Virus record (IMG/VR): IMGVR_UViG_2547132415_000014
Location: 1-21,879 of that record
Strand: one strand, 5' to 3'
DNA from: a virus
Taxonomy: Duplodnaviria > Heunggongvirae > Uroviricota > Caudoviricetes
DNA length: 21,879 bases
Shown: one piece after another, positions 436-4,115 of the stretch
How positions within the stretch are numbered: position 1 is the first letter of the stretch
Layout of the letters: every line of letters starts with the position of its first letter
Notes under the pieces: model-generated
Database searches by the model: none
What the model saw: only the letters and a program-made list of their open reading frames with translations
What the model was told of the DNA's origin: nothing
Translations under genes and position numbers: made by a program

Positions 436-510
436 GGGTCAGTCGTATAAAGGTCATTACGGAAGGCTGTTAACCTTCTTATCGTGGTTCGAGCCCACGC
501 TGTCCCGCCA
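436..510 (+). tRNA. tRNA-Asn (anticodon GTT), phage-encoded, divergent
   Basis: Hand-folded cloverleaf: acceptor 436-442/500-506 (6 of 7 pairs, one T:T mismatch), D-loop with GG, anticodon stem gaagg/ccttc perfect, loop ctGTTaa, T-arm cgtgg-ttcgagc-ccacg, discriminator G plus encoded CCA 508-510. Confidence 0.6.
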
Positions 511-515
511 AACAT

Positions 516-591
516 GCTGGTTTAGCTCCAATGGTAGAGCGGTCGCCTTGTAAGCGAATGGGTAGCGGTTCAAGTCCGTTAACCAGCACCA
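516..591 (+). tRNA. tRNA-Thr (anticodon TGT), phage-encoded
   Basis: Hand-folded cloverleaf: perfect 7-bp acceptor gctggtt/aaccagc, D-arm gctc-caatggta-gagc, anticodon loop ctTGTaa (one mismatch at 27:43), 5-nt variable loop, T-arm agcgg-ttcaagt-ccgtt, discriminator A plus CCA 589-591. Confidence 0.65.
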
Positions 592-2051: not shown

Positions 2052-2083
2052 TTTTTTTGCAAATCACAAAGTCCATTTAATGA

Positions 2084-2106
2084 GCCTCGCGATGCGGGGC
2101 TTTTTT
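2084..2106 (+). terminator. intrinsic terminator after the lysis cassette (stem gcctcgc/gcggggc, loop gat, T6)
   Basis: 7-bp GC-rich stem (one G-U pair) 2084-2090/2094-2100 followed by tttttt 2101-2106. Confidence 0.55.
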
Positions 2107-2253
2107 ATGTCCGCAGTAAACGCGCTTCACACGCGCGATTTATGAACACAGAACCTTTCAGGATGACCCTTGAGGATGCCGGTTTGGTGATCGGTGCCTT
2201 TCTGTGGGCCGGAATCCTGTGTGACAAGGTTCATCACTAAAAGGTAATCACCG

Positions 2254-2796
2254 ATGAATTATCCAACTATCGTTGACGGCATTGATTTCAAAGAACTGGT
2301 TTTTATTACCAACAATGACCCTGTCACCGATTCATTTATGGTGGCGAAAGCATTTCGTAAGCGACATGACAACGTTGTGCGTGATGTAGAAAGAACTATC
2401 GCTGCTTGTCCTGAAGAGTTTGATACAAAACTCAATTTTGAGGTTTGCTATAAAAACAATGAGTTACAGAATGGTAAGCCACAAAAATTCTATCGGCTAC
2501 GTAAGGATGGGTTGATGCTTTTGGTTATGTCCTACACCAAAAAAGAAGCAATGCGGATCAAAATTGCTTACATCAACGCATTCAACTGGATGTACGCCAT
2601 GCTTCAGGTTGGTCATCGTCAATTTGAAGAAGAGAGAAATGCCGTAATGCTGGAGTACATGAAAGAGAAGGATGTTGCCAGCATGTCAGGCCGCCTGCTT
2701 AATCGCTGGGGAAAAATTAAGAAGCCTCAGCTACTGGCGAGAATTGAACGCCTTGAACAGCACGGGCAAACCGTAATCCCCGGACTCACCAATTAA
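2254..2796 (+). CDS. Rha-family phage regulatory protein
   Basis: 180-aa product with the Rha-domain signature region (DSFMVAKAFRKRHDNVVRDVERTI) near the N-terminus; accessory position between lysis and terminase genes. Confidence 0.75.
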   Translation: MNYPTIVDGIDFKELVFITNNDPVTDSFMVAKAFRKRHDNVVRDVERTIAACPEEFDTKLNFEVCYKNNELQNGKPQKFYRLRKDGLMLLVMSYTKKEAMRIKIAYINAFNWMYAMLQVGHRQFEEERNAVMLEYMKEKDVASMSGRLLNRWGKIKKPQLLARIERLEQHGQTVIPGLTN

Positions 2797-2954
2797 CGGC
2801 AGTACCACGAAACAACCCAAGCCAGTAAGTGGGGAAATAACACTGGCAGCCACTGAAAGATGAACCTCCTGCCTTATGGCAAAAAAGATTCTTTGTGGTG
2901 GCGGACTGATGGAAAGACATCCTAATCAAGCAACTACTCTACAGGGCCATAATT

Positions 2955-3326
2955 ATGAACGACCAGCAAATCGAAAAAGAAATCGTTGAGAAAGGCAAAA
3001 CCGCTCCGCGAGTTACCCCGCAGCACATCGAAGACGTGATTAAAAGCGAGCATTGCTTCACCGCATACGATGGTATTGGCGGAGAGGGCGCTATGGCGAC
3101 ATACAAATCCGCGCTTGATTTAACCGAAAGTCAGGAAGCATTAAAGCTTCTTACATTCTGCGTCCTGGTGCTGCGCAACGGCTTCACCGTCACCGGCGAA
3201 AGTGCCTGCGCCAGCCCGGAAAACTTCGACCCGGAGATCGGTCGCAAGATCGCCCGCGAAAATGCTGTAAACAAAATCTGGATGCTCGAAGGTTACTTGC
3301 TGAAGCAGAAACTAAGCGAACAGTAG
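2955..3326 (+). CDS. hypothetical phage protein, Gp49/Sf6-gp66-like (function unknown)
   Basis: 123-aa ORF with coding-like composition; recalled resemblance to the small uncharacterised family found just upstream of terminase genes in P22-like phages (GFTVTGESACASPENFDPEIGRKIA...). Family call unverified. Confidence 0.55.
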   Translation: MNDQQIEKEIVEKGKTAPRVTPQHIEDVIKSEHCFTAYDGIGGEGAMATYKSALDLTESQEALKLLTFCVLVLRNGFTVTGESACASPENFDPEIGRKIARENAVNKIWMLEGYLLKQKLSEQ

Positions 3327-3429
3327 TTATTACAAAAGCCATTCCCTACAGAGTGGCTTTGATAATGGCTTATACCCTACACGGGATAACTTAACTGATA
3401 TCCCTTTTAACGGATAAACGGAGCCAACA

Positions 3430-3672
3430 ATGGCAGAGATTATTCCCATGACTGAAGAACAGAAATTCCAGTTAGAGATTTACAAGCTGGTCATGAACCA
3501 GAACGCAGCTGCAGAGGAAGCATTTCAGTTCATTGGCACTGACGAACTGAAGCTTGAGCTATTCAAAATTCACTTCCAGTCAGGTGGCGCTAATTCAGAT
3601 ATCACGACCCGTACAATCGAAGCGGTGCGTAAATCGAAGGAAGCGTTAGACCTGTTTACTACCGGAGCATAA
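3430..3672 (+). CDS. hypothetical small helical protein (80 aa)
   Basis: ORF with SD-like acggag upstream; stop 3 nt before the small terminase start, implying co-expression with the packaging genes. Confidence 0.55.
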   Translation: MAEIIPMTEEQKFQLEIYKLVMNQNAAAEEAFQFIGTDELKLELFKIHFQSGGANSDITTRTIEAVRKSKEALDLFTTGA

Positions 3673-3674
3673 AC

Positions 3675-4115
3675 ATGGCGCGCCCAACAAAGTATCAAGA
3701 GGCGTATGCCGAACAGGCACGCAAACTGTGCTTGCTGGGCTACACCGATGCAGAACTTGCTGATTTCTTTGAAGTCAGTGAGTCAACTATTAACAAGTGG
3801 AAGCTTGATTATCCTAAGTTTTCGGAGTCCATAAAAAAGGGTAAGGCCGTCGCTGATGCAGAAGTTAGTGACCGTCTTTATCAACGCGCTATGGGCTTTG
3901 TGGCTCCAGACATCGATATTCGTGTTATTGAAAACAGAATTGTCGAAACTCCGCTTGAGAAGTATTACCCGCCTGATACAACCGCCGCCATCTTCTGGCT
4001 TAAGAACCGACAGAAGGATAAATGGCGCGACAAGGTTGATCACGAGCTAACAGGCAAAGACGGCGGCGCAATCCAGATTGAAACATCACCGATGAGCACT
4101 CTATTCGGAAAATGA
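3675..4115 (+). CDS. terminase small subunit (Sf6 gp1-like)
   Basis: 146-aa product; C-terminus ELTGKDGGAIQIETSPMSTLFGK recalled as matching the Sf6-type small terminase; immediately precedes and overlaps the large terminase (ATGA). Confidence 0.85.
   Translation: MARPTKYQEAYAEQARKLCLLGYTDAELADFFEVSESTINKWKLDYPKFSESIKKGKAVADAEVSDRLYQRAMGFVAPDIDIRVIENRIVETPLEKYYPPDTTAAIFWLKNRQKDKWRDKVDHELTGKDGGAIQIETSPMSTLFGK

What the first reader, a model, noticed from the sequence alone, without database searches (positions are those of the whole stretch)
2254..3672. Accessory block between lysis and packaging genes: Rha regulator, Gp49/gp66-like protein and an 80-aa helical protein
These three genes are not part of the lysis or morphogenesis core and are bounded by a terminator at 2084-2106 and the terminase start. 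Rha-family proteins are known to interfere with phage growth in some hosts, and the other two have no known function. The 80-aa ORF ends 3 nt before the small terminase, suggesting co-expression with packaging. A hairpin (3335-3341/3354-3360) separates the gp49-like gene from it.
Basis: partly seen in the sequence, partly recalled or inferred. Interest (0 to 1): 0.4.

Follow-up and report, generated by a model that had tools for sequence, protein, structure and literature searches.

The report
Late-operon accessory block with Acb4 sponge
This is the usual swappable accessory stretch between the lysis and DNA-packaging genes of a P22/Sf6-like prophage; its middle gene belongs to the recently described Acb4 family of phage proteins that soak up bacterial CBASS alarm nucleotides, so the block is largely explained and only the 80-aa protein remains a real unknown.

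Summary
Three ORFs lie at the stated coordinates: Rha+ORF11CD3 (2254-2796), a PF13876 protein (2955-3326) and DUF2560 (3430-3672). They sit between a real intrinsic terminator (2082-2102 plus T-run) and the small terminase ATG (3675).

PF13876 (N4 gp49 / Sf6 gp66) was defined in 2024 as the Acb4 anti-CBASS cyclic-dinucleotide sponge family, and Sf6 gp66 is in the published list. The window protein scores E 3.5e-34 against the Pfam model. Its AF2 model hits only the Acb4 crystal structure 9E4W in the PDB.

Comparing about 160 related loci shows a mosaic:
- acb4 is a 405-bp bare-ORF cassette (2922-3326), present in about a quarter of loci.
- The Rha slot holds Rha, KilA-N or Tad2-like genes, or is empty.
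- DUF2560 was present in 75 of 75 loci anchored on this terminase. It is under extreme purifying selection, yet its P22 counterpart (orf80) is dispensable in the laboratory. No structural or sequence relative gives a function.

The hairpin is real and larger than reported (3328-3367). It shows compensatory changes and is not a terminator. It coincides with the 3' end of P22 small RNA P22G.

Verdict: ordinary, mostly known biology. Interest 0.3.

The parts
2082..2108 (+). Intrinsic terminator after Rz/Rz1 (stem-loop 2082-2102 plus T-run). It is the left boundary of the accessory region.
   Evidence: 9 pairs, 6 of them G-C, loop of 3, tail TTTTATGTCC. About 60 of 160 related loci share this segment.
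2142..2240 (+). 32-aa hydrophobic small ORF (matches positions 23-54 of the 63-position phrog_16173 profile). It overlaps a region resembling P22 small RNA P22F (2167-2234). Gene status is uncertain.
   Evidence: phrog_16173, E 2.1e-23; 52/65 identity to P22F (sequence taken from PMC13397905). Sf6 has a different small hydrophobic ORF, gp65, at the same place.
2254..2796 (+). Rha-family protein: an N-terminal Phage_pRha domain (putative DNA binding) and a C-terminal ORF11CD3 domain. pI 9.3.
   Evidence: (phrog_518, E 2.2e-81). At the same position HK620 hkbK is KilA-N + ORF11CD3 and phage Huey has a Tad2-like gene.
2738..2921 (+). Conserved segment made of the last 59 nt of rha plus 125 nt of intergenic sequence. 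It is homologous to nt 1-186 of P22 small RNA P22G.
   Evidence: 176/184 identity to P22G; positions 2801-2900 are present in 143 of 160 loci, whatever gene lies upstream.
2876..2989 (+). 37-aa ORF overlapping the acb4 start. Probably not a gene: only its first ~16 codons are conserved, and its C-terminus depends on what is inserted downstream.
   Evidence: No PHROG match. It is annotated as hypothetical in phage Huey.
2922..3326 (+). acb4 cassette: a 33-nt leader plus the ORF, inserted as a bare ORF between P22G-equivalent nt 186 and 187.
   Evidence: 40-43 of 160 loci carry it, while both flanks are near-universal. define the junctions. One search finds no promoter-like or terminator-like site inside it.
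2955..3326 (+). Acb4-family protein (anti-CBASS 4, cyclic-dinucleotide sponge), 123 aa. It has a hypervariable insertion at residues 41-64.
   Evidence: PF13876, 117.6 bits against a cut-off of 27; phmmer against 9e4w, E 0.004. AF2 model, then Foldseek, where the top 13 PDB hits are all 9E4W; the family definition includes Sf6 gp66; entropy profile.
3328..3367 (+). Conserved interrupted stem-loop: a 10-bp inner stem (3335-3344 / 3351-3360) and a 5-bp outer stem, with no U-tract. It is the left edge of the conserved DUF2560 module.
   Evidence: fold. (covariation). (haplotypes AAAGCCA/TGGCTTT, GAGACCA/TGGTCTC, AAGCCCA/TGGGCTT). P22G ends in its left arm.
3383..3408 (+). Second hairpin, GGGATA(N10)TATCCC, followed by TTTT, 22 nt upstream of the DUF2560 ATG. 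It is nearly invariant in relatives, so there is no covariation test.
3430..3672 (+). DUF2560 protein (P22 orf80, HK620 hkbM, Sf6 gp67): 80 aa, four helices, pI 4.7. Function unknown.
3675..4115 (+). Small terminase subunit. It is the right boundary of the block and starts 2 nt after the DUF2560 stop.
   Evidence: phrog_309, E 9.7e-68; 75 of 75 loci with this TerS have DUF2560 at identical spacing.

Best explanation
The block is the mosaic accessory region that P22-like and other lambdoid phages carry between the lysis cassette and the packaging genes.

Transcription (inferred). The block has no promoter of its own. It lies downstream of the late antiterminator Q, a tRNA pair and the S/R/Rz genes. 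It is therefore read as part of the late operon by Q-modified polymerase, which passes the terminator at 2082-2102.

The block consists of independently exchangeable units.

(1) A 'Bro-network' protein, here Rha-N + ORF11CD3. It is a basic, putatively DNA-binding late regulator or antirepressor-like protein. Its only documented phenotype is blocking phage growth on IHF-deficient hosts.

(2) A 405-bp bare-ORF cassette encoding an Acb4-family protein. By homology, this protein most likely assembles into a homotetramer. The tetramer would sequester CBASS second messengers (3'3'-cGAMP, cUA and, for Gram-negative homologues, c-di-AMP) so that the host effector is not activated. It would be made at the time late proteins and packaging are under way. 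Family membership and fold are shown here. Oligomer formation, ligand binding and timing are inferred.

(3) A conserved module comprising a structured leader (stem-loop 3328-3367) and DUF2560, abutting the small terminase. DUF2560 is a small acidic four-helix protein kept nearly invariant in nature but dispensable in the laboratory. I therefore think it most likely acts on a conserved host factor or condition (counter-defence or takeover) and is not part of the packaging motor. This last step is the weakest.
For: Context:
- Q, tRNA-Asn/Thr, holin, endolysin and Rz lie upstream; TerS, TerL and portal lie downstream.
- The terminator is confirmed, and there is no promoter-like site in 2100-3430.
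- In the BTP1 prophage, only pid in this region is among the five genes reported as highly expressed in lysogeny (PMC7067206).

Acb4:
- PF13876, E 3.5e-34.
- PF13876 is defined as the Acb4 family. All eight purified homologues tested bound cGAMP, and Sf6 gp66 is listed in the family table.
- phmmer against 9e4w, E 0.004.
- The AF2 model (pLDDT 81) matches only 9E4W: probability 1.0, TM 0.61-0.71 normalised by target length. The next PDB hit has E 0.25.
- F48, F62, I66 and the Gly-Arg motif are conserved.

Mosaic structure:
-.
- Tad2-like (PF11195, E 1.7e-24) and Acb4 genes lie side by side in phage Huey.
- An enterobacterial Acb4-Sequestin fusion exists, P0164.

DUF2560:
- Present in 75 of 75 TerS-anchored loci.
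- 72 distinct nucleotide alleles occur in 80 loci. 71 encode the identical protein, and one has a single amino-acid change.
- Only 42 representatives in 1.8 billion proteins.
- P22 phages with orf80 deleted or replaced grow and lysogenise.
Against: - Binding and oligomerisation were not tested. Only 3 of the 10 SPO1 ligand-contact residues are identical, and the guanine-reading K36 and E49 are not conserved.
- Late-operon expression could be late for a sponge.
- The no-promoter call rests on a simple consensus scan.
- Nothing here shows what Rha does. No IHF consensus site lies near it.
- For DUF2560, the host-directed role rests only on its distribution, purifying selection, dispensability and neighbours. 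Its near-universality is unlike typical patchy anti-defence genes.
- The 80 loci used for the allele count were the best-scoring of 403, which biases them towards identical proteins.
- The invariant 2-nt junction with this TerS allele is also what a packaging link would give.
Confidence: 0.75

Rival explanations
1. DUF2560 is a packaging accessory factor, translationally coupled to the small terminase. This makes the right end of the block part of the morphogenesis module.
For: - A 2-nt spacer, with the TerS Shine-Dalgarno sequence inside the DUF2560 3' end.
- Identical spacing in 75 of 75 loci with this TerS.
- It is always the last or next-to-last gene before the terminase.
- Strong purifying selection.
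Against: - The same 80-aa sequence precedes other genes: hkbN/orf59c-type genes in 17 loci, the HK620-type TerS about 80 nt away in 14, and something else in 21.
- In phage L the DUF2560 domain is followed by orf129 and dec.
- A 37%-identical homologue lies in an HK97-like siphovirus, separated from an unrelated TerS by two genes, one of them on the other strand.
- P22 lacking orf80 makes viable particles.
Confidence: 0.15
2. The PF13876 protein in this phage is not primarily a CBASS sponge. It might use its dsRBD-like fold to bind RNA, or it might bind a different signal such as a Thoeris or type III CRISPR nucleotide, with the hypervariable insertion (residues 41-64) setting the specificity.
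For: - Chang et al. report that the Acb4 monomer resembles dsRNA-binding domains.
- 7 of the 10 SPO1 contact residues differ.
- A 24-residue hypervariable insertion (2.55 bits per column) lies directly N-terminal to the K36-equivalent position.
- Gram-negative homologues already differ in specificity: they also bind c-di-AMP.
Against: - All eight diverse homologues tested bound 3'3'-cGAMP.
- The core motif NGFTVTGESACASPENF..EIGRKIAR is almost invariant across Proteobacteria and is shared with A0A0B3RSW4, which was modelled as a ligand-bound tetramer in 10.1101/2025.07.12.664507.
- An Acb4-Tad2 fusion protein cancelled CBASS defence in vivo.
Confidence: 0.1
3. The conserved stem-loop and flanking non-coding segments are only recombination boundary sequences left by cassette exchange. 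They would have no RNA function, and the apparent covariation would reflect two or three old haplotypes.
For: - There are essentially three stem haplotypes.
- One locus (L090) is a recombinant with the crossover in the loop, and its stem is broken.
- Cassette junctions lie immediately on either side of the stem: acb4 upstream, pid downstream.
- Perfect 7-bp hairpins are not rare here.
Against: - All three haplotypes keep pairing through changes on both sides at three or more positions, including the outer stem (A-T to G-C).
- The fold z-score is -4.3.
- In P22, a discrete 204-nt RNA (P22G) ends in the left arm of this stem.
Confidence: 0.3

Closest known systems
Acb4 (anti-CBASS 4) of Bacillus phage SPO1, PDB 9E4W, and its family PF13876, which includes Sf6 gp66 and N4 gp49
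   Same: - Strong Pfam family match.
- The same helix / three-strand / long-helix fold.
- A small phage-encoded protein.
- F48, F62, I66 and the Gly-Arg motif are conserved.
- About 78% identity to Sf6 gp66, which lies in the same genomic slot.
   Different: - Only about 28% identical to SPO1 Acb4.
- K36, E49, Y57, T70 and K81 are not conserved.
- It carries a 24-residue hypervariable insertion between the first and second strands that SPO1 lacks.
- Binding and tetramer formation are untested for this allele.
- No database protein is more than 94% identical.
rha of phages phi80 and P22 (P22 orf201)
   Same: The same two Pfam domains (Phage_pRha + ORF11CD3), and the same position and strand directly after Rz in the late operon.
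   Different: - A different N-terminal sequence type from P22 Rha. The synteny BLAST assigned each locus's Rha gene to either the window type or the P22 type.
- No IHF consensus site nearby.
- The IHF-dependent growth phenotype is known only for phi80 and P22.
P22 orf80 / HK620 hkbM / Sf6 gp67 (DUF2560)
   Same: 100% amino-acid identity to Sf6 gp67 and HK620 hkbM, and 98.8% to P22 orf80. The position before the packaging genes is the same.
   Different: Here it abuts TerS directly. P22, HK620 and Sf6 have an extra small gene (orf59c / hkbN / gp68) in between.
P22/BTP1 pid moron locus
   Same: It occupies the same interval between the rha-proximal conserved segment and orf80. It is likewise accessory and host-directed.
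   Different: - pid is on the opposite strand, with its own weak promoter and Rho-independent terminator, and is expressed in lysogens and carrier cells.
- acb4 is co-oriented with the late operon and has no promoter or terminator.
- acb4 is inserted upstream of the stem-loop; pid lies downstream of it.
Sponge gene pairs and fusions: Tad2 + Acb4 in phage Huey, Acb4-Tad2 and Acb4-Sequestin fusions
   Same: The same locus in close relatives holds a second sponge family. This supports a counter-defence role for this slot.
   Different: The window has Rha where Huey has a Tad2-like gene. DUF2560 is not related to Sequestin (hhalign probability 1.4%).

Membership tests
Acb4 / PF13876 | Match to the PF13876 profile above the gathering score | tested here: met
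   117.6 bits against a cut-off of 27, E 3.5e-34, full-length profile 1-82.
Acb4 / PF13876 | Protomer fold: N-terminal helices, three antiparallel strands and long C-terminal helices, as in 9E4W | tested here: met
   The AF2 model has strands E29-36, E66-73 and E78-84 and helix H93-121. In Foldseek the top 13 PDB hits are all 9E4W chains, probability 1.0, TM (target) 0.61-0.71. The next hit has E 0.25.
Acb4 / PF13876 | Conservation of the ligand-contact residues of SPO1 Acb4 (K36, F48, E49, V56, Y57, F62, N63, I66, T70, K81) | tested here: inconclusive
   F77, F91 and I95 correspond to F48, F62 and I66, and the Gly-Arg motif is kept. The other seven residues differ. The paper shows that divergent homologues still bind cGAMP.
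Acb4 / PF13876 | Homotetramer with four inter-protomer pockets | not testable with these tools
   Only monomer prediction was available.
Acb4 / PF13876 | Binds CBASS cyclic dinucleotides and rescues phage from CBASS | not testable with these tools
   Requires EMSA or ITC and plaque assays.
Rha (PF09669) Bro-network protein | Phage_pRha N-terminal domain plus a swappable C-terminal module | tested here: met
   PF09669, E 2.7e-23 (residues 25-113). ORF11CD3, E 5.1e-26 (residues 125-176).
Rha (PF09669) Bro-network protein | Late-operon gene, as in phi80 and P22 | tested here: met
   Same strand, directly after Rz, with no promoter-like site. Syntenic with P22 rha.
Rha (PF09669) Bro-network protein | IHF-regulated, and inhibitory in IHF-deficient hosts | tested here: inconclusive
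   No WATCARNNNNTTR site in or near the block. The phenotype itself cannot be tested here.
DUF2560 (PF10834) | Profile match and orthology to P22 orf80 / HK620 hkbM | tested here: met
   E 1.1e-43. 100% identical to Sf6 gp67 and HK620 hkbM.
Sequestin (PF21825), considered for the 80-aa protein | Sequence or profile similarity to PF21825 | tested here: not met
   No PF21825 hit for any of 22 DUF2560 members at E up to 10. hhalign probability 1.4% against the Sequestin domain of P0164.
Classical moron (gene with its own promoter and terminator), considered for acb4 | Own promoter upstream and own terminator downstream | tested here: not met
   No promoter-like or terminator-like site in 2922-3326. 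The cassette is a 33-nt leader plus the ORF.
Intrinsic terminator, considered for hairpin 3335-3360 | G+C-rich stem followed by a U-tract | tested here: not met
   Not called by the scan. The stem is followed by GAUAAUGG, and other haplotypes likewise lack a U-tract on either strand.

The most novel reading that the evidence does not exclude
The lysis-terminase junction of lambdoid phages may be a dedicated exchange site where bare counter-defence ORFs (acb4, tad2-like) are swapped in and expressed without promoters of their own. In this reading:
- a conserved structured RNA (the P22G-like segment plus stem-loop 3328-3367) frames the site and perhaps processes or stabilises the transcript;
- the always-present DUF2560 protein is itself an uncharacterised counter-defence or host-takeover factor with a highly conserved target;
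- the hypervariable insertion of the enterobacterial Acb4 proteins would then tune ligand range or evade host systems that detect sponges.
Probability: 0.2. Interest if true: 0.6.

Novelty: new member of a known kind. Interest (0 to 1): 0.3.

Why it matters
- It assigns a concrete, testable function (anti-CBASS nucleotide sponge) to a gene that most phage records still annotate as hypothetical, and that some pipelines call 'anti-CRISPR'.
- It shows that temperate P22-like prophages of enterobacteria carry sponge cassettes inside the late operon.
- It singles out DUF2560 as a good target for a function screen: near-universal in this sample, almost invariant, and dispensable in the laboratory.
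- None of this changes current understanding. It mainly updates the annotation.

Tried and rejected
1. DUF2560 as a Sequestin (PF21825) relative, because Sequestin is a short helical sponge often fused to Acb4. No profile similarity was found.
3. PADLOC defence models for all four ORFs: no hits.
4. An IHF site near rha: none.
5. The hairpin as an intrinsic terminator: no U-tract on either strand.
6. The P22 pid promoter persisting upstream of DUF2560 in the window. This was rejected, because P22 and BTP1 share only about 20 nt before the ATG with the window.
7. Literature on the Rha mechanism: nothing beyond the family description and 'Bro network' domain shuffling.
8. The search for related loci with the divergent DUF2560 alignment failed because no stretch was conserved enough. 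The closer alignment was used instead.
9. The 37-aa ORF at 2876-2989 as a gene. This is unlikely, since only its first ~16 codons are conserved.
Full report
**What is there**

The window is the late region of a P22/Sf6-like (Lederbergvirus-type) prophage. Reading left to right:
- the 3' part of a Q antiterminator gene;
- tRNA-Asn and tRNA-Thr;
- holin, endolysin and Rz with embedded Rz1;
- the block in question;
- small terminase, large terminase, portal and virion genes.

The three ORFs of the finding are exactly where stated, and each has a strong family match:
- 2254-2796: Phage_pRha (E 2.7e-23) plus a C-terminal ORF11CD3 domain (E 5.1e-26).
- 2955-3326: PF13876 Phage_gp49_66 (E 3.5e-34).
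- 3430-3672: DUF2560 (E 1.1e-43).

The terminator after Rz is real: stem-loop 2082-2102 with 6 G-C pairs and a T-run. The DUF2560 stop ends 2 nt before the TerS ATG, and the TerS GGAG lies inside the end of DUF2560. No sigma-70-like promoter was found in the block on either strand. In the related prophage BTP1, only pid in this region is among the five genes reported as highly expressed in lysogeny (PMC7067206). I therefore infer that the block is read only as part of the Q-dependent late transcript.

**The middle gene has a known family function**

A phmmer search of PDB sequences returned one significant match: 9e4w, 'anti-CBASS 4 (Acb4)', E 0.004.

Chang et al. (bioRxiv 10.1101/2024.12.30.630793) found Acb4 in Bacillus phage SPO1. 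They showed it is a tetrameric sponge for 3'3'-cGAMP and related CBASS signals. They defined the family as Pfam PF13876 (1,331 homologues). All eight purified homologues bound cGAMP, and only those from phages of Gram-negative hosts also bound c-di-AMP. Sf6 gp66 (Q716B1) is in their Table S3.

An AF2 model of the window protein (pLDDT 81) has the expected topology of helices, three strands and a long C-terminal helix. In a Foldseek search of the PDB its top 13 hits are all chains of 9E4W, with probability 1.0 and TM 0.61-0.71 normalised by target length. The next hit has E 0.25.

Three of the ten SPO1 ligand-contact residues (F48, F62, I66) and the Gly-Arg motif are conserved. The guanine-reading K36 and E49 are not. 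This fits the different specificity reported for Gram-negative homologues, but it leaves the ligand range of this allele open.

Residues 41-64 form an insertion relative to SPO1 Acb4. This segment is hypervariable among close relatives: 2.55 bits per column, against 0.16-0.82 elsewhere. The closest database protein is 94% identical over 96% of the length.

**Mosaic anatomy**

I fetched 80 viral loci through DUF2560 and 80 through this TerS and compared them with the window.

Among 73 related loci that contain both Rz and DUF2560 (the 72 anchored on DUF2560 plus the window itself), the slot after Rz holds:
- Rha in 29;
- KilA-N proteins in 16;
- a Tad2-like gene in 4;
- none of these in 24.

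Acb4 is present in 17 of them. The TerS-anchored set gave similar proportions.

HK620 hkbK is KilA-N + ORF11CD3, and P22 Rha is Rha + ORF11CD3. The N-terminal domain is therefore exchanged while the C-terminal module stays. Phage Huey CDS0064, annotated 'anti-CRISPR', is a Tad2-like protein (PF11195, E 1.7e-24) lying next to an Acb4 gene.

A positional coverage map shows where the cassette boundaries are:
- 2926-3325 is present in only 40-43 of 160 loci;
- the flank at 2801-2900 is present in 143 of 160;
- the flank at 3326-3672 is present in 147-160 of 160.

The left flank (2738-2921) is 96% identical to nt 1-186 of the P22 small RNA P22G (PMC13397905). The remaining 18 nt of P22G are the left arm of the stem-loop that, in the window, follows acb4. 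So acb4 is a 405-bp bare-ORF insertion (2922-3326) into that conserved sequence.

In P22 and BTP1 the pid moron occupies the interval on the other side of the stem-loop. It lies on the opposite strand and has its own promoter and terminator.

Only 16 of 5,426 complete E. coli genomes carry at least 80% of this particular three-gene combination. Parts of it occur in 2,956 genomes.

**The hairpin**

The region 3327-3445 folds at -32 kcal/mol, z = -4.3.

Related loci carry at least three stem haplotypes that all pair: AAAGCCA/TGGCTTT, GAGACCA/TGGTCTC and AAGCCCA/TGGGCTT. In these, 96.6% of cells pair, against under 49% when the partner is slid, and three pairs change on both sides.

There are few independent haplotypes, and one locus is a recombinant with the crossover in the loop. 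The support is therefore moderate. No haplotype has a U-tract, so this is not an intrinsic terminator. An RNA processing or stabilising element, or a mere recombination boundary, remain open.

**DUF2560**

- The protein is a four-helix, acidic (pI 4.7) 9-kDa protein.
- It has no informative structural relative. No Pfam family other than its own scored better than E 0.01, and there was no PADLOC hit.
- The family is tiny: 42 representatives among 1.8 billion proteins.
- It is present in all 75 loci anchored on this TerS, always with the same 2-nt spacer.
- Among the 80 best-matching loci there are 72 different nucleotide alleles with 1-14 substitutions. 71 encode the identical protein; one has a single amino-acid change. 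This is a biased sample (the top 80 of 403), but it is still a clear sign of purifying selection.
- The same protein precedes non-homologous genes: window-type TerS, hkbN/orf59c, or HK620-type TerS about 80 nt away.
- A 37%-identical homologue lies in an HK97-like Klebsiella siphovirus, two genes from an unrelated terminase.
- P22 derivatives in which orf25, pid and orf80 are deleted or replaced grow lytically and lysogenise (10.1101/2023.08.15.553423; PMC11016777).

This speaks against an essential packaging role. It is what one expects of a conditionally useful, host-directed function, but the function itself is not shown.

**Rha**

Nothing here goes beyond family knowledge. It is a basic protein of the domain-shuffling 'Bro network' (PMC10111431). 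The Pfam description records that phi80 rha is a late gene that blocks growth on IHF-deficient hosts. I found no IHF consensus site near it.

**Verdict**

The block is a new combination of known parts. It contains a new allele of Acb4 and carries ordinary lambdoid mosaicism. The points of residual interest are DUF2560, the structured conserved leader into which cassettes are inserted, and the hypervariable insertion of the enterobacterial Acb4 proteins.

Noticed in passing
window 436-591: tRNA-Asn (GTT) and tRNA-Thr (TGT) lie between the Q gene and the holin. Sf6 has the same arrangement, and its annotation notes the similarity to phage 21.
   Followed up: partly
HK97 (L009 2501-2584) and HK75, HK544, HK446, HK106, mEpX1, mEp235: The first 27-28 codons of DUF2560 (93-96% identical) survive as a truncated remnant. 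In HK97 the remnant lies just upstream of the HNH endonuclease gene. This indicates an old recombination junction inside the gene.
   Followed up: partly
window 3075-3146 (Acb4 residues 41-64): A hypervariable insertion (2.55 bits per column against at most 0.82 elsewhere) sits in an otherwise almost invariant protein, directly before the position equivalent to the guanine-contacting K36 of SPO1 Acb4.
   Followed up: partly
L002 (phage Huey) 1935-2435 and 2670-3050; protein P0164: Huey carries a Tad2-like gene (PF11195) in the Rha slot next to Acb4, and both are annotated 'anti-CRISPR'. P0164 is an enterobacterial Acb4 + PF21825 (Sequestin) fusion.
   Followed up: partly
L005 (P22) 1076-1681: The annotated 201-aa P22 Rha starts at a GTG. 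Its first ~23 residues overlap the region reported as small RNA P22F. The Pfam domain and the window protein suggest the real start is the internal Met (MNELI...).
   Followed up: no
L090, upstream of DUF2560: One locus joins the left arm of one hairpin haplotype to the right arm of another. The crossover is in the loop, and two pairs are broken.
   Followed up: partly
window 2142-2240 and L003 (Sf6) 2219-2371: Two unrelated small hydrophobic ORFs (a 32-aa phrog_16173 fragment here, the 50-aa gp65 in Sf6) alternate at the position directly after Rz. It is unclear whether either is expressed.
   Followed up: no
L074, L030, L166, L037, L122 and others, just upstream of the stem-loop: In some relatives the insert ahead of the stem-loop ends with a clear intrinsic terminator (for example GGCGGCCTTTTTTATTGCC). 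Some cassettes in this slot are therefore true morons, unlike acb4.
   Followed up: no
window 4112-4115: The TerS stop and the TerL start overlap (ATGA), as is usual for translationally coupled terminase subunits.
   Followed up: no
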